A DNA stretch of 64,000 nucleotides from Actinomycetota bacterium (GTDB lineage Bacteria > Actinomycetota > UBA4738 > HRBIN12). Of the stretch, positions 3,403 to 30,339 are shown in pieces. A program made the translations under genes and the position numbers. The DNA is taken from NCBI GenBank assembly GCA_036280655.1, contig DASUQI010000020.1, positions 86,049 to 150,048 on the forward strand, written 5' to 3'. A model generated the notes under the pieces. It worked only from the letters and a program-made list of their open reading frames with translations. It did no database searches and was not told the origin of the DNA. Positions within the stretch are counted from its first letter, which is position 1. Each line of letters starts with the position of its first letter.

Positions 3403-3424
3403 GACATCGGGGCCCGCGGAGGGG

Positions 3425-3438
3425 GGGACCTTCTGCCC
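3425..3438. promoter_or_regulatory. Weak DosR-box-like site (GGGACCTTCTGCCC) 50-65 bp upstream of the hsp20 start.
   Basis: The half-site GGGACC is perfect and the second half is degenerate. The position is appropriate for an activator site. It is compared with the stronger palindrome at 14520-14545. Confidence 0.25.
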
Positions 3439-3489
3439 TGCTCAGAAGCGCATCGCGAGCGTAGGTTGACGACTGAGGAGGTGAACACG

Positions 3490-7525: not shown

Positions 7526-9838
7526 TTACCCCCTTCCCGCGTTCGCCACGAGCACCTGGCCCAGCGCGATGCCCCCGTCTCCTACGGGAGCCTCCCGTGG
7601 GAGATAGACGTCGAACCCGACGGCCTCCAACCGGGTGACGAGATCCGAGGTCAGGAGGCTGTTGTTGAACACGCCGCCGGACAGGCAGACGCGCGACAGG
7701 CCGGTCGCTCCCCGGACCGCTCTGCACATCTCGAGCGTCGCGGCGGCCATCGTGCGATGGAAGCGACCGGCGACCTCGCCTGGCTGCCGGCCGCGCCGCA
7801 GGTCGCGCACCACCTCAGTGATGATGGGTCGTGGGTCGAGGGCGATGGCGCCCTCGTGGAGGCCGATGTCGAAGGGGTACTCGCGGGTCGCGCCGCCCTC
7901 GGCGGCCTGCTCCAGGAGGACCGCCGGGTGACCCTCGTAGGTCGAGGACTCGACGAGTCCGGCCAGGGAAGCCACCGCGTCGAAGAGCCGTCCCACCGAG
8001 GACGTGGTCGCGGCCGCCTCGTGCGAACGGATCTGCCGAAGTACCAGATCTACCTCGGTCGTTGGGGCGGCGAGGAGATCCACGGCGTCGTCGGCCACAC
8101 CCGCCTCGTCTGCGTGTGCGAGCGCCATCCGCCAGGGGGAGCGGACCGCCGCGTCGCCTCCGGGCAGGGCGACCGGCCGGAGACAGCCGGCGCGATCGGC
8201 GGCGGCGGCGTCGCAGACGAGGAACTCTCCTCCCCACGCCGTGCCGTCGGTCCCCAGCCCGAAGCCGTCGAACGCCACGCCGATCACGCGCCCCTCGAGC
8301 CGGTGCTCGGCGATCACCGAAGCGACGTGCGCGTGGTGGTGCTGGACCGCGACCGTCGGCAGGGCGAGCCCCTGCGCGAACCGCGTCGTGAGGAAGTCGG
8401 GGTGCAGGTCGTGGGCGACGAGCTCGGGCTCGAGCCCGAACACCCGCCGGTAGCGTTCGAGCGCCGCGGTGTAGGAGGCCAAGGCCTCCTCGGTCACGAT
8501 GTCGCCGATGTGCTGGGAGAGGTACGCCTTCCGGCCGGCCGCGAGGCAGAAGGCGCCGTGCAGCTCGGCTCCGGTCCCCAGGGTCGGGACGACGTCGGCG
8601 GCGAGCGGCAGCGGCGTCGGGGCTCGGCTCCGTGCCCTGCGCATCATCAGCTCACGACCTCGCCATACGCGTTCGACGCTGTCGTCGTAGCGCGCGACGA
8701 TCTCGCGGTCGTGGACCAGGAACGCGTCGGCGATGTCGCCGAGCCGGCGGAGTGCGTCGGCGTTCTCGATGCAGATCGGCTCGTCGCTGCGATTCCCGCT
8801 CGTCATCACGAGCGGGCGCCCCACCTCCCGAAGCAGGAGATGGTGGAGGGGTGTCGACGGCAGCATCGCTCCCTGACGGCGATGGCCCGGTGCCACCGAG
8901 GGTGCGAGCGTGCCCCGGTCCTCCACGAGGACGATCGGGGCGCGGGGCGACGCCAGAGCCGAGCGCTCGGCCGGGCTCGGTCGGAACCGCTCGCCCGCCT
9001 CGTCGAGGCCAGCGACCATCACGGCGAGGGGCTTGTCCGGTCGTCGTTTCCGCTCCCGGAGGAGCGCGACCGTGGCATCGTCGGTGGCGTCGCACGCGAG
9101 GTGGAACCCGCCGAGCCCCTTCAGGGCGACGATGCGTCCGTCGGCGAGCAGCCGCGCGGCCTCCTCGATGGGGTCTCCGGCGATCGGGTCACCCCGCAGA
9201 TCGACGAGCTCCAGGCGCGGTCCGCAGGTGGGGCATGCGATCGGCTCCGCGTGGAATCGCCGATCGGCCGGGTCGTGGTACTCGTTCGCGCACGCGGGGC
9301 ACATCGGGAACGCACGCATGCTGGTGCGTTCGCGGTCGTAGGGGAGCGCCTCGATGATCGTGAAGCGCGGTCCGCAGTCCGTGCAGTTGATGAACGGGTA
9401 CCGGAACCGTCGGTCGTCCGGGTCGAACAGCTCTCGCACGCACCGCTCGCACGTCGCGGCGTCGACCGAGACGAGGCGTTCCCCTTCGAGGCCGACGACG
9501 CTCTGGTCCACCTCGAACGTCTCGAACCCGATCGGCACGACGTCTCGCCAGCTGACCGACTCGACGCGGGCGAGTGCGGGCGCTCGGGTCTCGAGTGCCG
9601 AGCAGAACTCGACGAGGGCCGCGTCGCTCCCCTCGACGACGATCTCGACGACACCGCTCCGATTCCGGACCCAACCGGTCAGCCCGGCCTCGTCGGCCAA
9701 TCGCCACACGAACGGTCGGAAGCCGACGCCCTGCACGACCCCGTGGACCTCGATCTCGCGCGCGGAGGTCTCGCTCGCGGGTCCCGTCATCGTCCGTGTG
9801 GTCATGTCCCCACCATCGATGGCCGTCGACGCCTTCAT
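7526..9838 (-). CDS. hypF: Carbamoyltransferase HypF (acylphosphatase domain, two Zn fingers, YrdC and Kae1-like domains).
   Basis: [21 protein letters not shown] is an acylphosphatase motif, and CxxCxxxY pairs plus YrdC/Kae1 domains follow. The ATG overlaps the protease stop as ATGA. Confidence 0.9.
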
Positions 9839-10374
9839 CGTGCCTCCGGTTCATCGCCGGGTGCCGGGTCGCTCGACCCGTCGGTTGCGGCACCTTCGGC
9901 CTGCGAGGCAAGGCCGCGTGCCTCCCGGACGATCGCCTCCGTGAGGTCGGGGAGTGCCGCGCGCACCGCCTCGGACATCGGCCGGCCCGCGGCGGTTTCC
10001 TCGGCCTCCACCCCAACGACGACGAACCGAGGGACCGGGCCGACAGCCCTCGCCACGCCGAACGCCTCAAGCACGCCGAACCCGTGAGAGGACAGCGAAG
10101 AGTAGATCTCGGCGGGCAGGCCGTCCGGACCCGCCACCGCCCGGACGATCGAGCCCGATGGCCGGCCGGCCCCCGGCGTGCGGATCGCATCCACCACCAC
10201 GATCGCCTCGACCCCGGCCACGAGGTGCACGACGTCGAACGGGGCGGCCCGCGGCCGGACGTCGACGCCGGGGATCGACTCGAGCTCGCCTCGGGCTCGT
10301 TCGACCGCCACGATCCCGGCGGCGTCGTCACCGGCATCCGGGTTACCGCAACCGATCACCCGGACGACCGTCAT
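9835..10374 (-). CDS. Hydrogenase maturation endopeptidase (HycI/HoxW/HupD family).
   Basis: It is a 179-aa protein beginning MTVVRVIGCGNPDAGDDAAG. The ATG overlaps the large-subunit stop as ATGA. Confidence 0.85.
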   Translation of the reverse strand: MTVVRVIGCGNPDAGDDAAGIVAVERARGELESIPGVDVRPRAAPFDVVHLVAGVEAIVVVDAIRTPGAGRPSGSIVRAVAGPDGLPAEIYSSLSSHGFGVLEAFGVARAVGPVPRFVVVGVEAEETAAGRPMSEAVRAALPDLTEAIVREARGLASQAEGAATDGSSDPAPGDEPEAR

Positions 10375-11675
10375 CGCCCGCTCGATGACCGGTCGATCTC
10401 GAGACGGAGGAAGTGCGTGGCGCAGCTGATGCACGGGTCGTAGTTCCGCACGACCATCTCGCAGAGCCGGGTGAGCTCGTCGTCCGGTCGGTCGAGCACC
10501 CCCGGCAGGAATCCCCGCAGGTCCTCCTCCATGTGTCGCAGGTTCTGCGAGGTGGGGGGGATGATCTTCGCCTCGAGGATCCTGCCGCCCTCGTCGACCT
10601 CGTAGCGGTGGTACAGCGTCCCGCGCGGCGCCTCGGTGACCCACGTCGCCCGGCCGGCTCGGGGGGTGGGCTCGACCATCGGCGGGTCCGGTGCCGTGTA
10701 CCCATCGATGATCCGGATCGACTCCTCGATCGCGAGGGTCACCTCTGCGGCGCGGGCGGCCATCGAGAAGAACGGGTCGGTCTCCGGCACCCGGAGCCCG
10801 ACCCGCTCGGCCACCTCCCGCGCGACCGGCGTGAGCAGCGACGCGTTGAGGTTGACCCGGGCGAGCGGACCGAGGAAGTACGGGGTCCCGGTGTCGCTCA
10901 TGAGCGAGTGGAGGGCGTTCGAGTGTTCGACCTGCACCTCGTGCGTCACCCGCTCGTAGGTCGTCGCGTCCCACCGCCGGCCGTTCGTCGAGGCCATGTC
11001 GCCGACGGTGATCGGGTATTCGGAGTCGTGCACCATCGAAACCATCTCGGCCGGGCGCGCGTACGACGGCGCCGGAAGCGACGCGACGAAGTCGGCGATC
11101 CCCGGCATCTCGCCGAGCGCCCATTCCAGGCGCGGGAGGAACGGCTCGAGATCCCGCGTACGCGGAGCCTTCGAGAATCCCCCGACGCGTGGGGACACCG
11201 GATGGATCTCCCGACCGCCGATGGCCGCCATGAGGTCGTTGCCGATCCGCTTGATCTCGAGCGCGCGCTTCACGAGCTCGGGGTGCTCGGTCGCCATCTC
11301 GATCGCGTTCGCGAAACCGAGGAAGTCGGGGGCGGCGAGCAGGAAGATGTGCAGCACGTGGCTCTCGATCCACTCCCCGCAGTAGAGGAGCCGCCGGAGC
11401 TCGTGCGTGCCCTCCGGCAACTCCATACCGAAGAGTTGCTCGAGCCCGTGGACCGCGCTCATCTGGTAGGCGACCGGACAGATCCCGCATATCCGCGGGA
11501 CGATGTCGGGGACCTCGTCGAAGCGCCGGCCTGCCAGGAACGCCTCGAAGAATCTGGGCGGCTCGTAGATCTCGAGCCGCAGGTCCGTGATCTCGCCGTC
11601 CTCGACCGCGACGTGGAGCGCGCCCTCACCCTCCACCCGCGCGATCACGGGGACCTCGACCGACCGGTGCGTCAT
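10371..11675 (-). CDS. [NiFe]-hydrogenase large (alpha) subunit, group 3b (sulfhydrogenase/NADP-coupled type).
   Basis: The N-terminal L1 motif is RICGICPVAYQ and the C-terminal L2 motif is DPCISCATHFL. It is about 435 aa and is followed by a dedicated protease. Confidence 0.9.
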   Translation of the reverse strand: MTHRSVEVPVIARVEGEGALHVAVEDGEITDLRLEIYEPPRFFEAFLAGRRFDEVPDIVPRICGICPVAYQMSAVHGLEQLFGMELPEGTHELRRLLYCGEWIESHVLHIFLLAAPDFLGFANAIEMATEHPELVKRALEIKRIGNDLMAAIGGREIHPVSPRVGGFSKAPRTRDLEPFLPRLEWALGEMPGIADFVASLPAPSYARPAEMVSMVHDSEYPITVGDMASTNGRRWDATTYERVTHEVQVEHSNALHSLMSDTGTPYFLGPLARVNLNASLLTPVAREVAERVGLRVPETDPFFSMAARAAEVTLAIEESIRIIDGYTAPDPPMVEPTPRAGRATWVTEAPRGTLYHRYEVDEGGRILEAKIIPPTSQNLRHMEEDLRGFLPGVLDRPDDELTRLCEMVVRNYDPCISCATHFLRLEIDRSSSGR

Positions 11676-12472
11676 CTCGTCGACTCCTTCGGCTCGAGGG
11701 CGTCGGCGGCCTCGCGGAAGGGCGGCGCCCAACCCGTGATGAACCGGAACCGGTCGGCGGCGTCCTTCTCGGTCACCCCGAGCTCGATGAACCGCCGCCC
11801 GAGCGCGTTGGTGTTGTTGGAGGGCTGGGCGGGCCCGAAGCAGCCGTAGCAGCCACGGCCGAACCCGGGACACAGGGCGCCGCATCCCGTCCGCGTGACC
11901 GGGCCGAGGCACGGCTCGCCCTTCGCGACGACGACGCAGACGTAGCCCCGCCGCTTGCACTCGAGGCAGACCGGCGAGTCGGACACCCGAGGCATGGCGC
12001 CCGTGAGCAGCGAACCGAGGGCACCCAGGAGCTGTCCCCGGTCGACCGGGCAACCCGTCAGCTGCAGGTCCACGGTCACGTAGTCCGAGATCGGGTGGGA
12101 GTCCTCCAGCGATCGCACGTACTCCGGTGTCGGGTAGACGGTACGGACGAACTCGTCGTGCCTGCCGGTCGCGTTCCGCAGCGCCTGCACGCCGCCGCTC
12201 GTCGCGCACGCGCCGATCGTGATCACGATCCTCGACTCGTGCCGGATCTGCCGGATCTGCGCCTCCTGCTCGGGCGTCGAGACGGACCCCTCCACGAGCG
12301 TGATGTCGTACGGGCCGGGTTCGATCCGGCTCGAGGCCTCGGCGAAGTTCACGATGTCGATCGCGCCGGCGAGCTCGAGCAGCGCCCGCTCGGCGTCCAG
12401 GAACTGGAGCTGGCAGCCGTCGCAGGAGGCCATCTTGAAGACGGCGACGCGCGGCTTCCCGGTCTCGCTCAC
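11672..12472 (-). CDS. [NiFe]-hydrogenase small (delta) subunit, group 3.
   Basis: Cys-rich FeS motifs include CDGCQ, GACATSGG and CLECKRRGYVCV...CLGPVTRTGCGALCPGFGRGCYGC. A GTG start at 12472 overlaps the upstream stop. Confidence 0.85.
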   Translation of the reverse strand: MSETGKPRVAVFKMASCDGCQLQFLDAERALLELAGAIDIVNFAEASSRIEPGPYDITLVEGSVSTPEQEAQIRQIRHESRIVITIGACATSGGVQALRNATGRHDEFVRTVYPTPEYVRSLEDSHPISDYVTVDLQLTGCPVDRGQLLGALGSLLTGAMPRVSDSPVCLECKRRGYVCVVVAKGEPCLGPVTRTGCGALCPGFGRGCYGCFGPAQPSNNTNALGRRFIELGVTEKDAADRFRFITGWAPPFREAADALEPKESTR

Positions 12473-13344
12473 AGTTCGGGCACCTCCATGAGGTCGCGGA
12501 CCCGGTCGTAGCGGAAGACCGGCCCGTCCGTACAGACGAAGTACGGGCCGAGCTGGCAGTGCCCGCAGATCCGGATCGCGCACTGCATGTTCCGCTCCAT
12601 CGACACGTAGAGCCGTTCGGCGGGGACCCCGAGGTCGAGGAGGCCACCGCCGCTGAACCGCATCATGACCTCGGGTCCGCAGATGAACGCCGTGGTGCGT
12701 GCCGGTTCGATCTTCGCCTTCTCGAAGAGCGTGGTGACCACCCCGACGCCGTAGAGCCAGCCCGGCTCGGGCTCGTCCACGGTCAGGTGCAGCTCGACGC
12801 CGAGGCGCTCCATCGAGGCGAGCCACTCGTCGAGCTGCGCCTGGTACGGCAGCAGGCTCGGCGTGCGCGCCCCGACGAGCAGGAGCAGGCGGCGGAAGCG
12901 GTCTCGATGCCGCATCGCCCACTCGATCGCGGGGCGCACCGGGCAGACGCCGAGGCCGCCCGCGACGACGAGGAGGTCACCCCCCTCAGCCTCGTCCAAC
13001 GGCCAGGGGCGGCCGAACGGGCCCCGGACGCCGAGCTCGTCGCCGGGCCGGAGATCCCGGAACGCGTCGGTCACGCGACCGGTGAAGCGGATCGTGTGCC
13101 CGAGCCGCTGCGGGTGCGACGGGTCCGAGCTGATCGAGATCGGGATCTCGCCCACGCCGAACAGGTACAGCATGTTGAACTGCCCGGCCTCGAAGGCGTA
13201 GCCATCGCCGTCCCCGTCGCGCCACGTCGACCAGAACGTGGATGAGTCGGGCGTCTCGGGGACGATCCGCTGGATCACCGCGACTCGGCTCGGCACCCCT
13301 TCGGGGTCGGCGGACCGGACCGCGTGGGGCGCCGGAACGCTCAC
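12469..13344 (-). CDS. Hydrogenase gamma subunit, an FAD/NAD(P)-binding oxidoreductase with a C-terminal 2Fe-2S Cys cluster (HydG/PyrK-like).
   Basis: The ferredoxin-reductase-type fold shows in ...GQFNMLYLFGVGEIPISI...GRPWP... with a C-terminal CAIRICGHCQLGP. A GTG start overlaps the hydB stop as GTGA. Confidence 0.8.
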   Translation of the reverse strand: MSVPAPHAVRSADPEGVPSRVAVIQRIVPETPDSSTFWSTWRDGDGDGYAFEAGQFNMLYLFGVGEIPISISSDPSHPQRLGHTIRFTGRVTDAFRDLRPGDELGVRGPFGRPWPLDEAEGGDLLVVAGGLGVCPVRPAIEWAMRHRDRFRRLLLLVGARTPSLLPYQAQLDEWLASMERLGVELHLTVDEPEPGWLYGVGVVTTLFEKAKIEPARTTAFICGPEVMMRFSGGGLLDLGVPAERLYVSMERNMQCAIRICGHCQLGPYFVCTDGPVFRYDRVRDLMEVPEL

Positions 13345-14447
13345 GAGGTCACCACCTCCACCTCGCCGTCCGTGATGCGGATCGCCGTGATCTCCTCGGT
13401 CACGTCGATGCCGACCGGGCACCACGTGATGCACCGGCCGCAGCCCACACACCCCGACGTCCCGTACTGGTCGATCCACGAGGCGAACTTGTGCGTCAGC
13501 CACTGTCGGTAACGGGAGGCGCGCGTCGTTCGCACCGATGCGCCCGCGGCCCAGCTGTGCTCCTGGCTGAAGCAGCTCGCCCACTCCCTCGTCCGCGTGG
13601 CGACGTCGCCCGAGAGCGACACGTCGTCGACGACGTCGTGGCAGAAGCACGTGGGGCAGACCATCGTGCAGTTCGTGCATGCGAGGCAGCGGTCGGCGAC
13701 CTCCTCCCACCGGGGATGCTTGGCGTTCCGGTACAGGAGACTCGGCAGGTCCGAGGTGTCGAGCCGGCGGCCCATGCGGGTGGCCGCCTCCGATGTCACT
13801 CGCTCGGGTTGCAGCGTCTCTTCCGCCGTCGCCTCGCGCGTCTCGACCGCGTCGAGCAGGTGCTCGCCGCGTTCGGTGCCGACCTCGACGACGAACCCGT
13901 CATCGAGCTCGGTGAGGGCGAGATCGAACCCGATCGTGCACCGGGGACCGGTCCCCATCGAGACGCAGAAGCACGTCGCGCCGGGCTCCCCGCAGTTCAC
14001 GCCCACGAACAGGGCGCGTTCGCGACGGCGCCGGTATCGGGGGTCGACGTCCATGAAGACGCGATCCTGTACGGCGATCGCGTGGAGGTCGCACGATCGG
14101 AGGCCGACGAACGCGAACGGCCGGTCGCCTTCGGGCGCCGGCGTCGCCCGCGTGCCCCCGTCGCGGGAGATCGTCGACAGCTCCTCCCGGGAGGGGAACA
14201 GGTAGCGCTTGCCCGCATCGGGACCGTGCGCCCATCCGAACACCCGGTCGTCATCTCGGGACGTGAGTCGGTAGGTGCCGGGCCCCTGTTCCTCGCCGAC
14301 ACCGGCCGGAAGGTCGCCGGCGCCCTCGATCCGGTCGAGCACGATCGCTCCGTCGCGGACCGTCGGCCCGATCAGGTCGTAGCCGTCCGCGATCGAGCGC
14401 AGGAGCCCGTCGAACGCCCGCCGGTCGAGGTACCTCATCACCGCCAT
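13341..14447 (-). CDS. Hydrogenase beta subunit, an iron-sulfur protein (HydB-like) with multiple 4Fe-4S Cys motifs.
   Basis: Motifs CLACTNCTMVCPTCFC and CVGCGRCITWCPVG are present. It is about 368 aa from MAVMRYLD. A GAAGGGGG-like RBS is present. Confidence 0.8.
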   Translation of the reverse strand: MAVMRYLDRRAFDGLLRSIADGYDLIGPTVRDGAIVLDRIEGAGDLPAGVGEEQGPGTYRLTSRDDDRVFGWAHGPDAGKRYLFPSREELSTISRDGGTRATPAPEGDRPFAFVGLRSCDLHAIAVQDRVFMDVDPRYRRRRERALFVGVNCGEPGATCFCVSMGTGPRCTIGFDLALTELDDGFVVEVGTERGEHLLDAVETREATAEETLQPERVTSEAATRMGRRLDTSDLPSLLYRNAKHPRWEEVADRCLACTNCTMVCPTCFCHDVVDDVSLSGDVATRTREWASCFSQEHSWAAGASVRTTRASRYRQWLTHKFASWIDQYGTSGCVGCGRCITWCPVGIDVTEEITAIRITDGEVEVVTS

Positions 14448-14519
14448 CCGCGACACTACCCCCTTCGGGGTCGAGCTTCGTCGGGCCCGGGGCGATCCCA
14501 GGAGGGACAACGGCACGGT

Positions 14520-14545
14520 CCGGGCGGGACCATGGTCCCGCCCGG
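14520..14545. promoter_or_regulatory. A 26-bp perfect palindrome CCGGGCGGGACCATGGTCCCGCCCGG, a candidate operator with a DosR-box-like core GGGACC-AT-GGTCCC.
   Basis: It is perfectly self-complementary and lies in the 265-bp divergent intergenic region about 75 bp upstream of the hydB start. It matches 16 of 18 positions of the mycobacterial DosR consensus SGGGACTWWAGTCCCS. Confidence 0.45.
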
Positions 14546-14712
14546 GTCGCCGGTCACGCACCAGGCACGAGCCAGGTCTTCCGAGGAAGGACCTTCGGCC
14601 CGTCGACAGCCCGCCGAACGGCCCCTGGCGCCGGCGCGCTGCCTCGTCAGAGTGCAGCCCATGACCGGCGCCCCACGGGAGGGGCGCGGCGGATGGACCA
14701 AGGAGGTGCGTG

Positions 14713-15270
14713 ATGAAGAAGGCCTTCCCGATCGTGCTGATGGTGATCGGCCTGGCGTTCGTCGTGGGCGGCACGTACACGGTGTTCCGTGGCCTCGACG
14801 CTCGCGACCAGGTGCGAGAGGAGCTCCTTGCGCAGAACATCGTGACGCCGGAGGACGCCTCCATCCCCAACACGCAGGTGACGGACGCCGCCACCGCGGA
14901 GTCGATGGCGGACATCATCAACGTGCACGCACGCGAGGCGACGGGTGACCGCTCCTACGCGGAGCTCGGCCGGTACCTGACGCCCGACGGTGGGGACACG
15001 AGCGACGAGGCCGAGGCGCTGAAGGACTCCGAGGGTAACCCGGTCGCGAACCCCGTTCGGGATGTCGCGTTCACGGCGTCGGCGCTGCGGACGAGCCTGT
15101 ACGCGTCGATCCTCGCGTTCAACGTCGCGGACCTGGTGGTCGGTCTCGGCGTTGCGATCGTGGTGCTCGGCCTGGCCGTCGGTGGCATCGGCGTCGCCCT
15201 GGCGGCGCTGGCGATCCCGGCCCTGGCTCGCCGCTTCCACGTCCAGCCCGTGGCCGCACAGCACGGCTGA
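14713..15270 (+). CDS. Hypothetical membrane protein with an N-terminal TM, a periplasmic-type domain and a C-terminal Ala/Gly-rich TM, transcribed divergently from the hydrogenase operon.
   Basis: An AAGGAGG RBS lies 8 nt before ATG 14713. GC3 is high. Confidence 0.6.
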   Translation: MKKAFPIVLMVIGLAFVVGGTYTVFRGLDARDQVREELLAQNIVTPEDASIPNTQVTDAATAESMADIINVHAREATGDRSYAELGRYLTPDGGDTSDEAEALKDSEGNPVANPVRDVAFTASALRTSLYASILAFNVADLVVGLGVAIVVLGLAVGGIGVALAALAIPALARRFHVQPVAAQHG

Positions 15271-15343
15271 TCCGCATCTCTCACGACGAGCTGCCCGGTC
15301 ATCCACCGGGCAGCTCGTTCGCGGCATCCGGGCCGCGCGCGGT

Positions 15344-16705
15344 CTAGACGACGCCCTGATCGAGCATCGCGTCGGCCACCCGGATGAACCCCGCGATATT
15401 CGCGCCGTTCACGTAGTTCCCCGGCGTGTTGTACTCCTCCGCCGCCTCGAGGCACCGCTGATGTATCGACTTCACGATGTCCTTGAGCCGCGCGTCCACT
15501 TCCTCGCGGGTCCAGTGCAGGCGCTCCGCATCCTGCGTCATCTCGAGACCGGAGACCGCCACGCCTCCGGCGTTCGCGGCCTTGCCGGGACCGAACAGGA
15601 TCCCCTCGCCCAGGAACCGCTCGATGCCGTCGGGAACCGTGGGCATGTTCGCGCCCTCGCAGACCACGAACACGCCGTTGTTGAGCAGGTTCGCCGCGTC
15701 CTTCGCGTTGATCTCGTTCTCCGTGGCGCTGGGGAAGGCGCAGTTGGCGGGCACATCCCAGAGCGGGTTGGAGTCCGCCTGCGGGTCGGCGGGCGTGAAC
15801 GTCGCATCCGTGAATCGCTCCGCGTACTCGTGGATCCGCCCGCGACGCTCGTTCTTCAACGCCTTCACCCATCGCAGCTTCTCGAGGTCGATCCCGTTCG
15901 GGTCGTGCACGAAACCCCCCGAGTCCGACAGGGTGATCGGCCTGGCGCCCATGTCGATCAGCTTTGCGGTCGTGTACTGGGCGACGTTGCCCGACCCGGA
16001 GACGAGACATACCTTGCCCTCGAGCGCGTCGTCGCGCGTGAGGAGCATCTGCTGCGCGAAGTAGACGGACCCGTAGCCCGTGGCCTCGGGACGGATCAGT
16101 GAGCCGCCCCACCCGACACCCTTGCCCGTGAGTACCCCGCTGAACTCGTTCCTGATCCGCTTGTACTGCCCGAAGAGGTAGCCGATCTCCCGCGCCCCCA
16201 CGCCGATGTCCCCGGCGGGAACGTCGGTGTTCGGCCCGATGTGTCGTTGGAGCTCGGTCATGAACGACTGGCAGAACCGCATCACCTCGCCGTCGCTCCT
16301 GCCCTTCGGGTCGAAGTCGGCGCCGCCCTTCCCGCCGCCGAGGGGGAGGCCCGTCAGGGCGTTCTTGAACACCTGTTCGAAGGCGAGGAACTTGAGCATC
16401 CCCAGGTCCACGGTGGGCTGGAAGCGCAGTCCTCCCTTGTACGGTCCGATCGCGCCGTTCATCTCGACCCGGTAGCCCCGGTTCACTCGGATCTCGCCCG
16501 TGTCGTCGACCCATGGGACCCGGAACATCAAGACGCGCTCGGGTTCGAGCAGGCGCTCGAGGATCCGACCTTCGCGGTATCCGAGGTTGCGGTCCAGCAC
16601 GACGCGCAGCGACCCTAGGACCTCTGACACGGCCTGATGGAACTCGGGTTCGTGCGGGTTGCGTTCGATCAGGTCCGAGATGAGTCGGTCGACGTCTCCG
16701 TTCAT
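15344..16705 (-). CDS. gdhA: NADP-specific glutamate dehydrogenase.
   Basis: It has 453 aa with full-length GDH motifs (GPYKGGLRFQP, LPLGGGKGGADFDPKG, GSGNVAQY). An AAGGAGG RBS is present. Confidence 0.92.
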   Translation of the reverse strand: MNGDVDRLISDLIERNPHEPEFHQAVSEVLGSLRVVLDRNLGYREGRILERLLEPERVLMFRVPWVDDTGEIRVNRGYRVEMNGAIGPYKGGLRFQPTVDLGMLKFLAFEQVFKNALTGLPLGGGKGGADFDPKGRSDGEVMRFCQSFMTELQRHIGPNTDVPAGDIGVGAREIGYLFGQYKRIRNEFSGVLTGKGVGWGGSLIRPEATGYGSVYFAQQMLLTRDDALEGKVCLVSGSGNVAQYTTAKLIDMGARPITLSDSGGFVHDPNGIDLEKLRWVKALKNERRGRIHEYAERFTDATFTPADPQADSNPLWDVPANCAFPSATENEINAKDAANLLNNGVFVVCEGANMPTVPDGIERFLGEGILFGPGKAANAGGVAVSGLEMTQDAERLHWTREEVDARLKDIVKSIHQRCLEAAEEYNTPGNYVNGANIAGFIRVADAMLDQGVV

Positions 16706-16855
16706 CGTCGGCCTCCTTTCGAGGGTCTCTGTTCGACCGTAGCGCCTCAGTTCCCTCTCGATCCTCGTCGATGGCCCCGTCCCGTGGGGGACCGATGGCC
16801 GGCCCGAAGCGTTGCATCCGGAGAGCGCTCGTAGGGGGTCGCTCGCGCCCGAGCG

Positions 16856-18595
16856 TCAGACGGCGGTGTAAGGGAGGTAGCGGGGCTGCCACATCATCGC
16901 GTCCACGGCCTTCTCGAGCTCGTCGTCGCCGAGATGGCGGCCGACACCCTCCTCTCGCGCGGCTCTCGCGACCTCGATCGCGACCGCTCTGGAAACCAGG
17001 CGAAGGTCGGACTGGCTCGGATACAGCGCCCCATGTCGGAGTCGCTCGTCCGGCGTGGCAGCGGCCAACGCATCGCTCGCAACGAGGAACATCTCGTCCG
17101 TGATCACTCGGGCTTCCGCGACCACGGCCCCGAGTCCGATGCCGGGGAAACAGAAGGCGTTGTTCGCCTGGCCGATCAGGTGCGTCCGATCGCCGCGGAC
17201 GACGGCCTCGAACGGGCTGCCGGTCGCGACGATGGCTCGTCCCTGCGTCCACTCCAGGACGTCCTCCGGCCGGGCCTCGGTCTTGGAGGTGGGGTTCGAG
17301 AGCGGGAGGATCACCGGGGTGGGGGTATGGGCAGCCATCTCTCGGATCGCGGTCTCGCCGAACGCGCCGGGCGAGCCGCTCGTGCCGATCAAGAACGTCG
17401 GATGGACGCGCCGAACGACGGCCTCGAGCCCGTACCGCTCGCCGGGAACGAAGCCGTAGGTCGCCATGGCATCAGCTCCGAGTGCGAATTCCTCCTTGTC
17501 GGCGTCCAGTCGCTCGCGGCCGAGGTACGTCAGGCCGCGAGAGTCGAGCTGGACGATGGCGCTGTGGATGAGGTCCTCGGGCGCGCCCTCCCGGCGGAGC
17601 CGAGCCCGGAGGAGGCGTGCGATCCCGATCCCCGCCGCCCCGGCGCCGAGGAACACGGATCGCGACGCGGCGAGCGGCCCGCCCGTCACCCGAAGCGCCG
17701 ACGTGATCCCGGCCATCACGACCGCGGCCGTGCCCTGGATGTCGTCGTTCAAGCTCGTGATCCGGTGCCGGTAGCGATCGAGCAGGCGGATCGCGTTGTG
17801 CTGCTTGAAGTCCTCCCATTGGAGGACCGCGTGCGGGAAGACCTCGATCACGCCCTCGACGAAGGCCTCGATGAACTCGAGGTACTCGATACCCCGCAGG
17901 CGCGGGTGTGGATAGCCGAAGTAGTCCGGGTCGGCGAGCAGCGCCTCGTTGTCGGTCCCCACGTCGAGGGAGACGGGCAGCGTGAGCGCCGGATGGATCC
18001 CTGCTCCCGCCGTGTACAGCGCGAGCTTCCCGACGGGGATCCCCATGCCGCCGGCGCCCTGGTCGCCGAGCCCGAGGATCCGCTCGTTGTCGGTCGCGAC
18101 GATCAGGCGGACGTCATCGTGCCGCGCGTTCGCCAGCAGATCGGGGATCCGATCGATGTCGTCGGGAGTGAGCCAGAGTCCACGGGGCCTGCGCATGATG
18201 TGGCTGTATCCCTGGCAGGCGCGACCGACGACCGGCGTGTAGACGATCGGCATCAGCTCCTGGAGATGTGCGAGCAGGAGCGCATAGAACAGCGTCTCGT
18301 TCCGATCCTGGAGCGCTGCGAGCCCGATGAAGCGCTCGAGGTCGTCCCGTTTGCGGCGATTCTTGGCGAGCTCGAGCCTCACCTGCTCGTCGAGCGAACG
18401 GACCCGTGGAGGCAGGAGCCCGCGGAGGCCGAACATCTCGCGCTCCTCCTCGGTGAACGCGGTGTCCTTGTTGAGGAGGGGTTGCTCGAGGAGCTCATGC
18501 CCGCGCTGGTGAACCGGCACCGAACTCCGTCCCGTCCGCAGAGCGTCGACCCATGTGCGTTCGTCAGTCCGCTCACGCTCGATCGTCGCGCTCAT
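16856..18595 (-). CDS. maeA: NAD-dependent malic enzyme.
   Basis: The 579-aa protein shows malic-enzyme N-terminal, dinucleotide-binding and C-terminal regions (FNDDIQGTAAV, GAGAAGIGIA). The ATG overlaps the pntB stop as ATGA. Confidence 0.9.
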   Translation of the reverse strand: MSATIERERTDERTWVDALRTGRSSVPVHQRGHELLEQPLLNKDTAFTEEEREMFGLRGLLPPRVRSLDEQVRLELAKNRRKRDDLERFIGLAALQDRNETLFYALLLAHLQELMPIVYTPVVGRACQGYSHIMRRPRGLWLTPDDIDRIPDLLANARHDDVRLIVATDNERILGLGDQGAGGMGIPVGKLALYTAGAGIHPALTLPVSLDVGTDNEALLADPDYFGYPHPRLRGIEYLEFIEAFVEGVIEVFPHAVLQWEDFKQHNAIRLLDRYRHRITSLNDDIQGTAAVVMAGITSALRVTGGPLAASRSVFLGAGAAGIGIARLLRARLRREGAPEDLIHSAIVQLDSRGLTYLGRERLDADKEEFALGADAMATYGFVPGERYGLEAVVRRVHPTFLIGTSGSPGAFGETAIREMAAHTPTPVILPLSNPTSKTEARPEDVLEWTQGRAIVATGSPFEAVVRGDRTHLIGQANNAFCFPGIGLGAVVAEARVITDEMFLVASDALAAATPDERLRHGALYPSQSDLRLVSRAVAIEVARAAREEGVGRHLGDDELEKAVDAMMWQPRYLPYTAV

Positions 18596-21707: not shown

Positions 21708-21977
21708 TCGGTGCCCGGGTGTCCCCCCGGGCTCGGACCGTCGATCAGCGAGCGGTCCGACGGGTAGGTCGTGCGGGACCGGATGATCCTCGTGGCGGAG
21801 TGCTCTGCGGTGCCGGCCCCTGCTCCAGATGTGGTGGCGGGTCACCGGTGTCACCCCCTTCGAGACCTCTTCGGTCTCATCTGAAGTATCTGGTCGCACG
21901 GAGTCCCCGGAGGGGGTCATCCGGCCCAGCTTGCCTGGGCCACGCGGCGCTCGGGTGTGATGGCGCGGCCGTGGTCG

Positions 21978-26632: not shown

Positions 26633-26721
26633 CGCTCCTCCTCACGGCAGGATGCGCGTGAGCGAGGCGCTTGGCCGAAGGCTCTCGACCCGTCGCCGGG
26701 GGGCCGTTCGGCCCCTCTCGC

Positions 26722-27402
26722 TCAGCCCTGGGACCCGGGCGTGGTCGTGTGTCGCGCGAGGTAGGCGGCCGCCTCGGCCCGCCTGGCCACCTCGAGCTTC
26801 GACAGGATGCTCGAAACGTAGTTCTTGACCGTCTTCTCGGCGAGGCTGAGCTCGTCGCCGATCTCCTTGTTCGTCTTGCCGTCGGCGACCAGCGAGAGGA
26901 TCCGCTCCTCCTGGGGTGAGAGCCGGGCTAGGCGTTCGTCCTTCATGAGGTGCTTGCCTCGGCGGAGGCGATCCAGTACCGAGCTCGTGACGGCGGGGTC
27001 GAGGAGGCTCTCGCCCTTCCCGACGGTCCGGATCGCCCGGACGAGCTCGCCGCCCTTGACCTCCTTCAGGACGTAGCCGGAAGCGCCGGCCATGATCGAG
27101 GCGAAGAGGGCCTCGTCGTCGGCGAACGACGTGAGCATCACGACGCGGGTGTTGGGGTGCTTGGCGAGGATCTCCCGGGTCGCCTCGATCCCGCTGCCGT
27201 CGGCGAGGCGCACGTCCATCACCACGACGTCGGGACGGGACCGGTCGGCCTCGTCGATCGCCTCTCGGACGGAGCCGGCTTCCGCGGTCACGACGATGTC
27301 CTCGGTCGCCTGGAGGAGCGCCCTGATCCCGCCTCGCACGACCTCGTGGTCGTCGACCAGCAGGATCCGGAGCGGCGGCTTCTTCGAGGACTTCTCCGGC
27401 AC
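26722..27402 (-). CDS. dosR: Two-component response regulator, NarL/LuxR family, closely resembling mycobacterial DosR/DevR.
   Basis: A receiver domain (LLVDDHEVVRGG...DVVVMDVRLADGSGIE) is followed by a LuxR-type HTH (LSPQEERILSLVADGKTNKEIGDELSLAEKTVKNYVSSILSKL). Many DosR-conserved positions are present. Confidence 0.9.
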   Translation of the reverse strand: MPEKSSKKPPLRILLVDDHEVVRGGIRALLQATEDIVVTAEAGSVREAIDEADRSRPDVVVMDVRLADGSGIEATREILAKHPNTRVVMLTSFADDEALFASIMAGASGYVLKEVKGGELVRAIRTVGKGESLLDPAVTSSVLDRLRRGKHLMKDERLARLSPQEERILSLVADGKTNKEIGDELSLAEKTVKNYVSSILSKLEVARRAEAAAYLARHTTTPGSQG

Positions 27403-27985: not shown

Positions 27986-28423
27986 ATGATCCCGTTCATG
28001 GGGACACACGGTCGAACGGTGCTGGTGGTCGAGTCATTCGCGGCCGAGCGCGAGCGCCTGGCTGCAGCGCTCGAGGACGACGGGTTCCTTGCCCTCTTGT
28101 GCCCCGGCCCATCGGAACCCGACTCCTCGTGCATCGGTTCACGCGGCGGCGCCTGCCCGCTCGAGGCCGAGGCATCGGTCGTGGTCCTCGACATGAGCAT
28201 CGGGAGCGACGAGGCCATGTTGGGGACGCCGGCGGAAGACCTGCTGGGCATGTATCTGGAAGGCGGTCACCCGGTCGTCGCGCTCGACGATCATCGGCGC
28301 GGGGGAGAGCCGGGGCAACTGATCGCGATGCGGCGGCATCCCGAGACACGGGATCTCCTCGCCGCGGTACGCCGGTTGGCACCCGACGCCGACGCTACGA
28401 CCGCAACGGCAACTCGATCCTGA
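27986..28423 (+). CDS. Receiver-domain-like (CheY-fold) small protein with a degenerate acidic pocket (VLVVESF... VVVLDMSIG...).
   Basis: A strong GGGGGAGGGGG RBS precedes ATG 27986. GC3 is about 88%. The 145-aa protein overlaps the 3' end of the kinase gene convergently by 29 nt. Confidence 0.45.
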   Translation: MIPFMGTHGRTVLVVESFAAERERLAAALEDDGFLALLCPGPSEPDSSCIGSRGGACPLEAEASVVVLDMSIGSDEAMLGTPAEDLLGMYLEGGHPVVALDDHRRGGEPGQLIAMRRHPETRDLLAAVRRLAPDADATTATATRS

Positions 28424-29501
28424 CCGTCGTTCCGAGGCCCGGGGTCGAGTCGATCGAGGTGGTTCCTCCGAGACCGGCGGCGCGCCGCTCCATGTTGGCA
28501 AGCCCGTCGCCGCGCCGGACGCTTGCCGGATCGAACGCCTTCCCGTCGTCGTCGACCTCGAGCACGGCGGAACCGTTCCGCCGGTACAGCGACAGGCGGC
28601 ACGTTGCCGCGCCGGAGTGACGGCCGACGTTCGAGAGGGCCTCGCGCGCGAGCTGCACCACATCGCCGGCCACGTCGGCAAGTCTCGACGCGACCGCGTC
28701 GTCGAGATCGACCGCGGTCACGATGCCGCTCTTGCGCTCGAAGTCCTCCACGAGCGATCGAAGGGCCGCATCGAGCTGTCGGTCGCCGAGGATGCCGGGG
28801 CGCAGGCCGAAGATGTAGGTGCGCAGGTCGCGGATCACGCGGTCGAGTTCCGCCACCGCCGCCTCGATCCGCTCCGACGTCTCCTCGTCGGGGGAGCGAA
28901 GCGCCGCCCCCTGCAGCCCCATCCCGACGGCGAACAGGGCCTGGATGACGCCGTCGTGCAGCTCCCGGGCGATGCGCTCTCGGTCCTCGAGGACCCCAAG
29001 GCGCTCGACCTCCTCATAGAGGTGCGCGTTCTCGATCGCGACCCCCGCCTGGGACGCCAGGATCACGAGGGCCTGCTCGTCCTCCTCGTCGAACTCCGCG
29101 GCGTCTTGCTTGTTGGTGAGATACAGGTTCCCGAAGACCGTCCCGCGCGAGATTACGGGAGCACCGAGGAACGAGGTCATCGACGGGTGGTTCGGCGGGA
29201 ACCCGTGCGACAGCGGGTGGTCGGCCAGGACCGGGATCCGGATGGGACGCGGGTCCTCGATCAGCAACCCCAGGATGCCGTGGCCGGTCGGCGGGTCGCC
29301 GATCGCCGCACGCTGCTCGGGGGTGATCCCCGTCGTCACGAACTCGGCGATGAGGCCGTCCTTCCCCAGCACACCGAGCGCTCCGTACTGGGCATCCGTA
29401 AGATCGGCGGCTGCCTCGATGATCCGCTGGAGGACTGCCTGAAGGCTGAGCTCGGAGGCGAGCGTCAGCCCGGTACGGATCAGTTGGTCTCGTCGGTCCA
29501 C
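28395..29501 (-). CDS. GAF-domain sensor histidine kinase (single GAF + HisKA_3 + HATPase_c), DosS/DosT-like.
   Basis: A GAF domain (...FLGAPVISRGTVFGNLYLTNK...) is followed by RIARELHDGVIQALFAV (the H-box) and a HATPase G-box (GLGGTTSIDSTPGLGTTVRIELP). Confidence 0.85.
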   Translation of the reverse strand: MDRRDQLIRTGLTLASELSLQAVLQRIIEAAADLTDAQYGALGVLGKDGLIAEFVTTGITPEQRAAIGDPPTGHGILGLLIEDPRPIRIPVLADHPLSHGFPPNHPSMTSFLGAPVISRGTVFGNLYLTNKQDAAEFDEEDEQALVILASQAGVAIENAHLYEEVERLGVLEDRERIARELHDGVIQALFAVGMGLQGAALRSPDEETSERIEAAVAELDRVIRDLRTYIFGLRPGILGDRQLDAALRSLVEDFERKSGIVTAVDLDDAVASRLADVAGDVVQLAREALSNVGRHSGAATCRLSLYRRNGSAVLEVDDDGKAFDPASVRRGDGLANMERRAAGLGGTTSIDSTPGLGTTVRIELPLRS

Positions 29502-29639
29502 GGGGTGGGAGCGTATCGCGGTCCCAGGCTGCGAGCGCCGGCCGGATAGGGACTCGTCGGTGATCGAGAGCCGAGGTCACGCGCCAGGATCGAGACCCCC
29601 CGGGCCTCAACCCTTCACGCGAGCCTCAACCCTTCAAGA

Positions 29640-30161: not shown

Positions 30162-30339
30162 CGCTCGACACCTCCTCATGACCGGCGGCACGCGGCGCCG
30201 GCGCTTTCACGTTCAGGCTACGGCCGTGATCGTTGCCCCGAAGGGCCGAACGGCCCGGAGAGTCCGTGAACCGGCTATGGGCCCGTGCTCCTGGGCGGCA
30301 CCGAGCGAGTGGGTTGCGAGGGACCATCGATCGGGGCCG

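What the first reader, a model, noticed from the sequence alone, without database searches (positions are those of the whole stretch)
14520..14545. 26-bp perfect palindrome with DosR-box-like core in the divergent hydrogenase promoter
CCGGGCGGGACCATGGTCCCGCCCGG is perfectly self-complementary, far longer than expected by chance. Its centre GGGACCATGGTCCC matches the mycobacterial DosR consensus (SGGGACTWWAGTCCCS) at 16 of 18 positions. It sits about 75 bp upstream of hydB and about 170 bp upstream of the divergent membrane-protein gene, so it could control both.
Basis: partly seen in the sequence, partly recalled or inferred. Interest (0 to 1): 0.65.

Follow-up and report, generated by a model that had tools for sequence, protein, structure and literature searches.

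The report
DosR-type operator before a hydrogenase operon
The 26-base palindrome is most likely the main binding site for a hypoxia-sensing DosR-like regulator that switches on a hydrogen-producing enzyme operon in an uncultured actinobacterium, a type of control already known from mycobacteria and Streptomyces.

Summary
The palindrome CCGGGCGGGACCATGGTCCCGCCCGG is real, at 14520-14545, and is the longest perfect palindrome in the window. Simulations reach 26 bp or more in about 1% of runs. Its core keeps every nucleotide known to be critical for M. tuberculosis DevR/DosR binding, in both halves.

The window encodes a response regulator (26722-27402) that is 49% identical to DevR, with an identical DNA-reading helix. 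It also encodes a kinase whose GAF domain matches the haem GAF-A domain of DosS/DosT.

The same box type recurs in front of hsp20, PFOR, pntA, gdh, a membrane-protein gene and the regulator's own operon. In each case the box centre lies 30 or 53 nt from a -10-like hexamer. Mycobacterial Dev boxes have this layout (about -42 and -64).

The palindrome sits 53 nt from a hexamer facing hyhB. The same geometry precedes hyhB in L003, L004, L005 and L088. The divergent membrane gene has its own conserved pair of boxes.

Caveats:
- The core motif alone is not significant.
- The perfect 26-bp symmetry is not conserved in the nearest relative.
- The closest HyhB relatives lack the site because hyhB there is fused to the PFOR operon.

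Verdict: a new member of a known kind, well supported in silico but untested experimentally.

The parts
14520..14545 (.). 26-bp perfect palindrome. The 16-mer core CGGGACCATGGTCCCG (14525-14540) is the proposed primary (P) DosR-type box of the hyhB promoter, centred about -65 from the predicted transcription start.
   Evidence: sequence and chance. (53 nt from the GAAGCT hexamer on the minus strand; same geometry in L003, L004, L005, L088). Critical Dev-box positions from PMC3177182.
14503..14518 (-). Candidate secondary (S) box, AGGGACAACGGCACGG on the + strand, centred 22 bp from the palindrome centre on the hyhB side (about -43). One half-site (GGGAC) is perfect and the other is weak.
   Evidence: Low OsdR-matrix score of -4.5. 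However, it is 100% conserved in L087, and L088 has a 1-mismatch counterpart, GGGGACGAAGGGCACC, 23 bp from its P box. A related GTGCCGTT element follows the P box in L004 and L008.
14474..14479 (-). Predicted -10 hexamer GAAGCT (NANNNT) of the DosR-dependent hyhB promoter. The implied transcription start is near 14467.
   Evidence: Inference only; there are no transcript data.
14453..14458 (-). TAGTGT hexamer conserved just upstream of hyhB. It could be a second (box-independent) -10 giving a leaderless ATG at 14447, or a 5' UTR element.
   Evidence: Conserved as TAGTGTCG in the window, L081, L085 and L086, and 100% conserved in L087.
14587..14602 (+). Box 2, AAGGACCTTCGGCCCG: primary box of the divergent membrane-gene promoter.
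   Evidence: OsdR-matrix score 11.25, in the top 0.02% of window positions. It lies 53 nt from CAGAGT. It is conserved at -110 to -118 from the ATG in L087, L088, L090 and L092.
14610..14625 (+). Box 2', CCCGCCGAACGGCCCC: secondary box, 23 bp downstream of box 2.
   Evidence: Score 7.85. It lies 30 nt from CAGAGT. A box lies exactly 23 bp after box 2 in all five loci.
14648..14653 (+). Predicted -10 hexamer CAGAGT of the membrane-protein gene.
   Evidence: Identical hexamer in the same alignment column in the window, L087, L088 and L092.
9835..14438 (-). Group-3b-type [NiFe] hydrogenase operon: hyhB (13341-14438), hyhG (12469-13344), hyhS (11672-12472), hyhL (10371-11675) and a hycI-like protease (9835-10371). 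hypFCDE follows at 5053-9790.
   Evidence: Pfam and NCBIfam. The best NCBIfam matches are sulfhydrogenase subunits, all below the equivalog cut-offs.
14713..15270 (+). Conserved membrane-anchored protein of unknown function (185 aa), transcribed divergently from hyhB.
   Evidence: No Pfam or NCBIfam hit. 645 homologues. AlphaFold2 pLDDT 86.5 with no fold match. In L105 it lies next to the regulator, behind a perfect box.
26722..27402 (-). DosR/DevR-like NarL-family response regulator, the proposed binder.
   Evidence: Best PDB match is 3c3w (M. tuberculosis DevR), E = 1.7e-56, 49% identity. The EKTVKNYVS helix, which includes K179, K182 and N183, is identical.
28395..29576 (-). GAF-HisKA_3-HATPase sensor kinase, DosS/DosT-like, with a single GAF domain.
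   Evidence: Pfam. The GAF domain matches DosT and DevS GAF-A structures at 1.6e-42 to 3e-36.
30242..30257 (-). Box CGGGCCGTTCGGCCCT (minus strand), 30 nt from TAGCCT, in front of the DUF6448-kinase-ORF284-regulator operon. It is the likely autoregulatory site.
   Evidence: (top OsdR-matrix score, 18.55).
3424..3439 (+). Box GGGGACCTTCTGCCCT, 30 nt from TAGGTT, in front of hsp20.
   Evidence: The orthologous box-plus-hexamer precedes hsp20 in L082 and L083.
26700..26715 (-). Box GGGGCCGAACGGCCCC (minus strand), 53 nt from CATCCT, between the regulator's stop codon and the PFOR start.
   Evidence: (score 18.53). A terminator role for the regulator gene cannot be excluded.
21913..21952 (-). Tandem P (21937) and S (21914) boxes 23 bp apart, both in register with GATACT at 21890, in front of pntA.
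   Evidence: The same pair is present in L082 and L083.
16787..16802 (-). Box CCGGCCATCGGTCCCC (minus strand), 53 nt from TACGGT, in front of gdh1.

Best explanation
The palindrome is the primary operator (P box) of a DosR/DevR-type, hypoxia- or redox-activated promoter for the group-3b [NiFe] hydrogenase operon hyhBGSL-hycI-hypFCDE.

Proposed mechanism:
1. The haem-type GAF kinase (28395-29576) senses low O2 or a redox gas and phosphorylates the DosR-like regulator (26722-27402).
2. A dimer of the regulator binds the two GGGAC half-sites of the palindrome, centred about 65 bp upstream of the transcription start.
3. It cooperatively recruits a second dimer to the weak neighbouring site at 14503-14518 (about -43). 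That dimer contacts RNA polymerase at the GAAGCT -10 hexamer.

The palindrome is one half of a back-to-back control region. A second P-S pair (14587-14625) drives the divergent membrane-protein gene.

Shown here: the sequence, the homology of the regulator and kinase, the recurrence and geometry of the boxes, and their conservation.

Inferred: binding, the transcription starts, activation rather than repression, and the signal.
For: 1. Regulator and kinase.
- The best solved-structure match of the regulator is M. tuberculosis DevR (1.7e-56, 49% identity), with an identical EKTVKNYVS helix.
- K179, K182 and N183 in that helix are the base-contacting residues (PMC4082495).
- The kinase GAF domain matches DosT/DevS GAF-A.

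2. The site. G3, G4, G5 and C7 in both halves, plus a central A/T, are the critical Dev-box positions (PMC3177182). All are present.

3. A regulon in the window.
- Box (1 mismatch or fewer) followed by a correctly spaced TANNNT occurs 5 times, against 0.72 +/- 0.85 in shuffles. All five are intergenic and face the downstream gene.
- An independent matrix built from published Streptomyces OsdR sites puts 9 of its 11 best hits in intergenic DNA. Three hits fall inside this 275-bp region.

4. Geometry.
- The best box lies 53-54 nt from an NANNNT hexamer in 9 of 13 upstream regions tested. These include hyhB in the window, L003, L004 and L005; the membrane gene in three loci; PFOR; and gdh1.
- L088 hyhB also fits.
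- Tandem pairs at 53 and 30 nt share a single hexamer.
- This reproduces the -63.5/-42.5 tandem Dev boxes of M. tuberculosis.

5. Link to the regulator family. In 80 metagenomic loci encoding relatives of the regulator, box-plus-geometry sites number 159, against 72 +/- 9 in simulations. The near-identical CGGGACCNNGGTCCCG occurs only in these loci.

6. Precedent. The M. smegmatis dos regulon includes the group-3b hydrogenase Hyh (PMC8125079).
Against: - The core motif alone is expected by chance in a third of shuffles.
- In L087, the nearest relative (about 94% DNA identity), the 26-mer carries 3 substitutions, 2 of them in the core. The other boxes and hexamers there are 100% conserved. The extended perfect symmetry is therefore not under visible selection.
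- The four closest HyhB relatives (84-91%) lack any such site. There hyhB is co-transcribed behind PFOR, DHOdh, pntAB or a CBS gene.
- Across 31 Actinomycetota hyhB loci, boxes are not more frequent than background: 5 observed against about 4 expected. Four of the five loci, however, have a site at -81 to -92.
- The secondary box scores poorly.
- NANNNT is a low-information hexamer, and no transcription start is known.
- Box-1-like sites also occur upstream of the membrane gene where no hyhB is present (L090, L092).
Confidence: 0.72

Rival explanations
1. The palindrome belongs only to the divergent membrane-protein gene, as a distal third DosR-type box. It has no role in hydrogenase expression. 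hyhB would be driven by the conserved TAGTGT promoter alone.
For: - A box-1-like site lies upstream of box 2 in every membrane-gene locus, including L090 and L092, where there is no hyhB.
- TAGTGTCG is conserved in front of hyhB in relatives that have no box.
- M. tuberculosis Rv1733c has an isolated box 63 bp upstream of its tandem pair. The spacing here is 62 bp.
Against: - The palindrome has an in-register hexamer only on the hyhB side.
- Its secondary partner also lies on the hyhB side and is conserved in L087 and L088.
- hyhB carries analogous boxes with the same 53-nt geometry in L003, L004 and L005, where the membrane gene is absent.
- The distance from box 1 to box 2 varies (62, 53, 21, 37 bp) and is not always in helical phase.
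Confidence: 0.12
2. It is an operator for a different palindrome-binding regulator, for example another LuxR/NarL paralogue or an unrelated dimeric factor encoded elsewhere in the genome, rather than the adjacent DosR-like protein.
For: - Only 64 kb of the genome is visible.
- NarL-family proteins are numerous in Actinomycetota.
- NCBIfam gives no DosR-specific call. The best models (MadR, MctR, NarL) all score below their cut-offs.
Against: - The recognition helix is identical to that of DevR.
- The motif is enriched specifically around relatives of this regulator.
- A box sits in front of the regulator's own operon.
Confidence: 0.08
3. It is a chance palindrome, or a by-product of the rearrangement that separated hyhB from the PFOR-pnt operon, with no regulatory function.
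For: - A palindrome this long arises in about 1% of simulated windows.
- The core arises by chance in 34% of shuffles.
- The 26-mer is less conserved than the surrounding intergenic DNA in L087: 88.5% against 93.4%.
- The gene arrangement in the window is derived.
Against: - It lies in a 275-bp region that holds three top-0.05% matrix hits.
- Analogous boxes occur at orthologous positions in distant loci.
- It keeps fixed geometry to a hexamer.
Confidence: 0.05
4. It acts as a nucleic-acid hairpin: a terminator or attenuator, a cruciform, a recombination site or a repeated mobile element.
For: As single-stranded DNA the segment folds at -19.6 kcal/mol, z = -3.9 against shuffles.
Against: - It lies between two divergent genes, upstream of both predicted transcription starts, so it is probably not transcribed.
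- No terminator-like site was found.
- No credible Rfam match was found.
- It is single-copy in the window.
Confidence: 0.03

Closest known systems
M. tuberculosis DevR/DosR 'Dev boxes' (PMC3177182) and the DosS/DosT-DosR two-component system
   Same: - Inverted repeat with GGGAC half-sites and an A/T centre.
- Regulator with an identical base-contacting helix, and a kinase with a GAF-A-like domain.
- Tandem primary and secondary boxes 21-23 bp apart, at about -64 and -42.
- Divergent intergenic regions with several boxes, as in narK2-Rv1738 and tgs1-Rv3131.
- Autoregulated operon.
- Regulon includes hsp20 (hspX).
   Different: - The site has C/G instead of T/A at the positions flanking the centre, and G+C-rich outer arms instead of TT/AA.
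- It is a perfect palindrome, whereas no perfect Dev box exists in the M. tuberculosis genome.
- The kinase has one GAF domain, not two.
- An extra conserved 284-aa ORF lies between the kinase and the regulator.
- The organism is an uncultured actinobacterium.
- Nothing here has been tested experimentally.
Streptomyces coelicolor OsdR/OsdK and its 16-nt consensus AGGGCCGATCGGCCCT (PMC5069765)
   Same: - Most boxes in the window (for example GGGGCCGAACGGCCCC and AAGGACCTTCGGCCCG) match the published OsdR sites closely. The published site AGGGACCTTCGGCCCC differs from box 2 at only 2 of 16 positions.
- Boxes lie 36-391 nt upstream of start codons.
- A box precedes the regulator's own gene.
   Different: - The palindrome itself is of the mycobacterial GGGAC/GTCCC type and scores only 7.1 with the OsdR matrix.
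- The S. coelicolor OsdR targets listed in the part of the paper that was read include no hydrogenase.
DosR control of the group-3b hydrogenase Hyh (Hyd3, MSMEG_3931-3927) in M. smegmatis
   Same: - The same class of hydrogenase (HyhBGSL).
- Induced in hypoxia (PMC2799521) and counted in the dos regulon (PMC8125079).
- Located next to a dos gene cluster.
   Different: - The window also links PFOR, transhydrogenase, malic enzyme and glutamate dehydrogenase to the same box type.
- The M. smegmatis promoter sequence and the Berney et al. 2014 paper could not be read here, so the operator architectures could not be compared.

Membership tests
DosR/DevR (OsdR)-type operator (Dev box) | Inverted repeat of about 18 bp with G3, G4, G5 and C7 in both half-sites and A/T at the centre (PMC3177182) | tested here: met
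   The 18-mer GCGGGACCATGGTCCCGC (14524-14541) has GGGAC in both halves and an AT centre. It matches 14 of the 16 letters of the quoted consensus.
DosR/DevR (OsdR)-type operator (Dev box) | A cognate NarL-family regulator with the DosR base-contacting residues (K179, K182, N183) is encoded in the genome | tested here: met
   The regulator at 26722-27402 has DevR 3c3w as its best PDB match (E = 1.7e-56). The helix EKTVKNYVS is identical. The residues come from PMC4082495.
DosR/DevR (OsdR)-type operator (Dev box) | A partner sensor kinase with a DosS/DosT-type (haem) GAF domain | tested here: met
   The kinase GAF domain matches DosT (2vzw, 1.6e-42) and DevS GAF-A structures. It has only one GAF domain. 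Haem binding cannot be tested here.
DosR/DevR (OsdR)-type operator (Dev box) | Tandem arrangement with at least one adjacent box about 21-23 bp away, in helical phase | tested here: inconclusive
   A half-site-only candidate lies 22 bp away (14503-14518). It scores -4.5 with the OsdR matrix. It is 100% conserved in L087, and L088 has a 1-mismatch counterpart. Secondary sites are also poorly conserved in M. tuberculosis.
DosR/DevR (OsdR)-type operator (Dev box) | Fixed position relative to the promoter (boxes near -42 and -64) | tested here: met
   The box centre lies 53 nt from an NANNNT hexamer here and in 8 other upstream regions; L088 hyhB fits as well. Partner boxes lie at 30 nt. The transcription starts are predicted, not measured.
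DosR/DevR (OsdR)-type operator (Dev box) | The same motif precedes other stress or hypoxia genes and the regulator's own operon (a regulon) | tested here: met
   Boxes precede hsp20, PFOR, pntA, gdh1, VOC, an unknown gene (35095-35706) and the DUF6448-kinase-regulator operon. The motif is enriched in 80 regulator-relative loci, 159 against 72 +/- 9.
DosR/DevR (OsdR)-type operator (Dev box) | Binding by the phosphorylated regulator, and hypoxia- or NO/CO-dependent induction of the downstream genes | not testable with these tools
   This needs EMSA or footprinting, reporter assays or transcriptomics.
Intrinsic terminator or regulatory RNA hairpin | Lies downstream of a transcribed gene, with a stem-loop followed by a T tract, or matches a known RNA family | tested here: not met
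   It lies between divergent genes. No terminator-like site was found. The only Rfam hit is a chance-level Hammerhead_II match elsewhere in the spacer.
Repeated palindromic element (REP or MITE) | Multiple copies in the genome | tested here: not met
   It is single-copy in the window with up to 3 mismatches allowed. Only 64 kb could be examined.
Group 3b [NiFe] hydrogenase operon (context of the site) | Four subunits: AsrA-like Fe-S beta, FAD/NAD-binding gamma, small delta and a NiFe large subunit | tested here: met
   Pfam gives Fer4_22, NAD_binding_1 plus DHODB_Fe-S_bind, Oxidored_q6 and NiFeSe_Hases. The best NCBIfam models are sulfhydrogenase HydB/ShyB and HydA/ShyA, all below the equivalog cut-offs.

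The most novel reading that the evidence does not exclude
The window may record a regulatory rewiring event. In the closest relatives the hydrogenase is the tail of one long PFOR-DHOdh-pntAB-hyh operon. Here that operon has been split by insertion of the malic-enzyme, gdh and membrane-protein genes. The detached hyh operon has gained, or kept, its own unusually symmetric, near-ideal DosR-type operator, placed back-to-back with the membrane gene's promoter.

More broadly, an uncultured soil actinobacterial lineage would place an entire fermentative module under a single DosR-type switch with a strict 30/53-nt box-to-hexamer rule. The module comprises PFOR, transhydrogenase, malic enzyme, GDH, the Hyh hydrogenase and its maturation genes, hsp20, and a conserved unknown membrane protein.
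Probability: 0.4. Interest if true: 0.45.

Novelty: new member of a known kind. Interest (0 to 1): 0.33.

Why it matters
If confirmed, DosR-controlled hypoxic hydrogen metabolism would extend from M. smegmatis to uncultured soil Actinomycetota.

The work also yields a compact, testable promoter grammar for finding such regulons in metagenome-assembled genomes: a primary box 53 nt, and a secondary box 30 nt, from the -10 hexamer.

It flags two conserved unknown proteins as core members of the system. One is the 185-aa membrane protein. The other is the 284-aa ORF between the kinase and the regulator.

It does not overturn anything. It is a good example of a known regulatory logic.

Tried and rejected
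- The strict mycobacterial core GGGACNNNNGTCCC with 1 mismatch or fewer showed no enrichment (8 observed, 9.8 expected). The exact core is expected in 34% of shuffles. The core alone therefore proves nothing. The regulon became visible only after relaxing to the OsdR-like GGGMCNNNNGKCCC and adding promoter geometry.
- I first read the paired palindromes at 21914 and 21937 as an RNA hairpin. The shared 30/53-nt register with GATACT, and conservation in L082, favour tandem boxes.
- A third, proximal box at 14482-14497 was considered for the TAGTGT promoter. Its matrix score is -12.8, which is background level, so I dropped it.
- ECF-type or SigF-type promoter readings of GTGCCGTT and GGGAT were rejected because the spacings do not fit. 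This rests on inspection only.
- The sigma-70 consensus scan and the terminator scan found nothing. Rfam gave nothing credible.
- A fold search with the membrane-protein model gave no significant match.
- The closest HyhB relatives were fetched in the hope of a phylogenetic footprint. They turned out to have a different gene order and no palindrome.
- Boxes upstream of hyhB are not generally enriched across Actinomycetota.
- The Berney et al. 2014 PNAS paper on DosR and Hyd3 could not be retrieved.
- The palindromes at 4086 and 5014 match the matrix but lie at gene 3' ends. They were treated as probable terminators, not operators.

Full report
**Observation.** Window 14520-14545 reads CCGGGCGGGACCATGGTCCCGCCCGG and is perfectly self-complementary.
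- It is the longest perfect palindrome in the window. A palindrome of 26 bp or more appeared in 1 of 200 order-1 and 3 of 200 order-3 Markov simulations.
- It is single-copy even with 3 mismatches allowed.
- The core GGGACNNNNGTCCC alone is not remarkable: at least one match turned up in 34 of 100 shuffles. With one mismatch allowed there is no enrichment (8 observed, 9.8 expected).
The quoted consensus has 16 letters, and 14 match.
- The positions shown experimentally to matter for M. tuberculosis DevR are all present in both halves: G3, G4, G5, C7 and a central A/T in the 18-bp box (PMC3177182).

**Context.** The window has 70% G+C. Its genes resemble those of uncultured Actinomycetota MAGs.
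- On the minus strand, starting at ATG 14438, lies a four-subunit group-3b-type [NiFe] hydrogenase (hyhB, G, S, L). It is followed by a hycI-like protease and hypFCDE.
- On the plus strand, starting at 14713, lies a 185-aa membrane-anchored protein with no family assignment.
- Further along are gdh, malic enzyme, pntAB, a DHODH-like gene and PFOR. Next comes a NarL-family response regulator (26722-27402), then a 284-aa ORF with no family, then a GAF-HisKA_3-HATPase kinase and a DUF6448 gene.
- otsB, a GH65 enzyme and hsp20 lie at the left end of the window.

**The regulator and the kinase.** The regulator's best solved-structure match is M. tuberculosis DevR/DosR (3c3w, E = 1.7e-56, 49% identity over 203 residues).
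- The recognition helix EKTVKNYVS is identical, including K179, K182 and N183. These three residues make the base contacts (PMC4082495).
- The kinase GAF domain matches the GAF-A domains of DosT and DevS at 1.6e-42 to 3e-36. The kinase has one GAF domain rather than two.

**A regulon in the window.** The published Streptomyces OsdR consensus AGGGCCGATCGGCCCT (PMC5069765) suggested relaxing the core to GGGMCNNNNGKCCC.
- With 1 mismatch or fewer, many of the 38 hits fall in intergenic DNA.
- Requiring a TANNNT hexamer 19-24 nt after the box gives 5 sites, against 0.72 +/- 0.85 in 100 dinucleotide shuffles. All five are intergenic and face the downstream gene: hsp20, the DUF6448-kinase-ORF284-regulator operon, a VOC gene, an unknown gene at 35095-35706, and gdh2.
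- A matrix built only from the 21 published OsdR sites places 9 of its 11 best window hits in intergenic DNA. It gives three top-0.05% hits inside the 275-bp hyhB/membrane spacer: 14525, 14587 and 14610.
- Not every hit is an operator. The sites at 4086 and 5014 lie at gene 3' ends and look like terminators.

**Promoter geometry.** Measured from the box centre to the start of an NANNNT hexamer, two distances recur: 29-31 nt and 52-54 nt.
- Tandem pairs 23 bp apart share one hexamer. Examples are box 2 and box 2' with CAGAGT at 14648, and 21937 and 21914 with GATACT at 21890.
- The palindrome lies 53 nt from GAAGCT (14479-14474, minus strand), facing hyhB. It has no in-register hexamer on the plus side.
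- In a uniform test of 13 upstream regions, the best box lay exactly 53-54 nt from a hexamer in nine. These are hyhB in the window, L003, L004 and L005; the membrane gene in the window, L088 and L092; PFOR; and gdh1. Each region holds only 2-6 such hexamers per 160 nt. L088 hyhB also fits.
- Assuming a start about 12 nt after the beginning of the hexamer, the boxes sit near -65 and -42. This is the arrangement described for M. tuberculosis (-63.5 and -42.5, tandem, in helical phase). There the secondary sites are poorly conserved and are filled cooperatively (PMC3177182).

**Comparative evidence for the spacer.**
- L087 carries the same arrangement at about 94% DNA identity. Box 2, box 2', the candidate secondary box at 14503-14518 and both hexamers are 100% conserved. 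The 26-mer has three substitutions, two of them in the core. The perfect symmetry is therefore not itself selected.
- Upstream of membrane-protein orthologues in four further contexts (L088/89, L090/91, L092, L105), box 2 sits at -105 to -118 from the ATG. Where visible, box 2' lies exactly 23 bp downstream. A box-1-like site lies 21-62 bp upstream.
- In L088 the divergent gene is again a HyhB homologue (63% identity). Its primary and secondary pair on the hyhB side is 23 bp apart.
- In L105 the membrane gene directly follows the regulator, behind a perfect CGGGACCTTGGTCCCG box.
- In L130 a single such box is equidistant (53 nt) from hexamers on both strands, each followed by a leaderless start. 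One palindromic box serving two divergent genes therefore does occur in this family.

**Link between motif and regulator family.** In 80 metagenomic loci encoding relatives of the regulator (50-92% identity), box-plus-geometry sites number 159, against 72 +/- 9 in Markov simulations. Many are tandem pairs. The order kinase-ORF284-regulator, and in L093 and L094 PFOR downstream, is conserved.

**What argues for caution.**
- The four closest HyhB relatives (84-91%) have no palindrome. There hyhB follows PFOR-DHOdh (L081, L085), PFOR-DHOdh-pntAB with overlapping stop and start codons (L082-84), or a CBS gene (L086).
- The window and L087 therefore show a derived arrangement, with malic enzyme, gdh and the membrane gene inserted between pntB and hyhB.
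- A TAGTGTCG element just upstream of hyhB is conserved with or without boxes. It may be a second, box-independent promoter.
- Over 31 Actinomycetota hyhB loci, boxes are no more frequent than background (5 against about 4 expected). Four of the five loci, however, have a site at -81 to -92.
- All transcription starts are predictions. No binding has been shown.

**Alternatives.** A terminator or RNA element is excluded by position, by the absence of a T tract and by Rfam. A repeated element is not supported. A chance palindrome, or a site belonging only to the membrane gene, remain minor possibilities.

**Comparison with what is known.**
- The system works like DevR/DosR-DosS/T of mycobacteria and OsdR-OsdK of Streptomyces. 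It meets every sequence-level membership criterion that could be tested. The exception is the secondary box, which is inconclusive.
- DosR control of a group-3b hydrogenase is established in M. smegmatis (PMC8125079; PMC2799521).
- The finding is therefore a new member of a known kind.
- The modestly new aspects are the lineage, the breadth of the box-bearing fermentative gene set, the strict 30/53-nt rule, the apparent operon split, and two conserved unknown proteins tied to the system.

Noticed in passing
window 14439-23012 versus L081, L082-L084, L085, L086: In the closest HyhB relatives, hyhB is the downstream part of a co-directional PFOR-DHOdh(-pntAB)-hyh-hyc-hyp operon. In the window and L087, malic enzyme, gdh1 and the plus-strand membrane gene sit between pntB and hyhB, so the operon has been split.
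   Followed up: partly
window 27412-28266 (-): A 284-aa ORF with no Pfam or NCBIfam hit lies between the GAF kinase and the DosR-like regulator. The same ORF (51-65% identity) holds the same position in many regulator-relative loci (L093, L094, L096-L105). It looks like a conserved third component of the system.
   Followed up: partly
window 14713-15270 (+); L105 2808-3356: The divergent 185-aa protein belongs to a large unannotated family (645 hits). AlphaFold2 predicts a long helical hairpin with hydrophobic ends (pLDDT 86.5), and there is no PDB fold match. It is consistently preceded by DosR-type boxes, and in L105 it directly follows the regulator.
   Followed up: partly
window 14453-14458 (-): TAGTGT(CG), 15-20 nt upstream of the hyhB start, is conserved in the window, L081, L085, L086 and L087, whether or not boxes are present. 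It may be a constitutive or leaderless promoter (ATG at 14447) or a 5' UTR element.
   Followed up: partly
window 21913-21952 (-); L082 6724-6762: Two boxes 23 bp apart lie in the DHOdh-pntA spacer, both in register with GATACT. The pair is conserved in L082 and L083. I first took it for an RNA hairpin; it is more likely a DosR-type primary and secondary pair for pntA.
   Followed up: partly
L130 1586-1715: A single perfect box, CGGGACCTTGGTCCCG, lies exactly 53 nt from NANNNT hexamers on both strands. Each hexamer is followed within about 7 nt by a start codon, so both mRNAs would be leaderless. The plus-strand gene looks like a universal stress protein by inspection of its N-terminus; this was not checked with Pfam.
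   Followed up: partly
window 4085-4100 and 5013-5028: GGGCC..GGCCC palindromes that score well with the OsdR matrix lie at gene 3' ends. The one at 5013 is in a convergent spacer. They are probably terminators, which is a warning that matrix hits alone overcall operators in this G+C-rich genome.
   Followed up: no
window 15344-16705 (-) and 52863-54224 (-): There are two glutamate dehydrogenase paralogues, each with a DosR-like box upstream (16788 and 54312). The second box has atypical spacing, 26 nt to TAGGCT.
   Followed up: no
window 35670-36020: The divergent spacer between an unknown gene and a polysaccharide pyruvyl-transferase gene holds three box-like sites (35778, 35854, 35909). Only the first has promoter geometry (30 nt to TAGCGT, minus strand).
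   Followed up: no
L088 117-827 (-): The HyhB homologue divergent from the membrane gene is only 236 aa long and loses similarity after about residue 175. It may be a frameshift, a pseudogene or an assembly error.
   Followed up: no
window 14633-14694 (-): A Hammerhead_II match at 17.3 bits (gathering score 37), E = 0.78. This is chance level.
   Followed up: no
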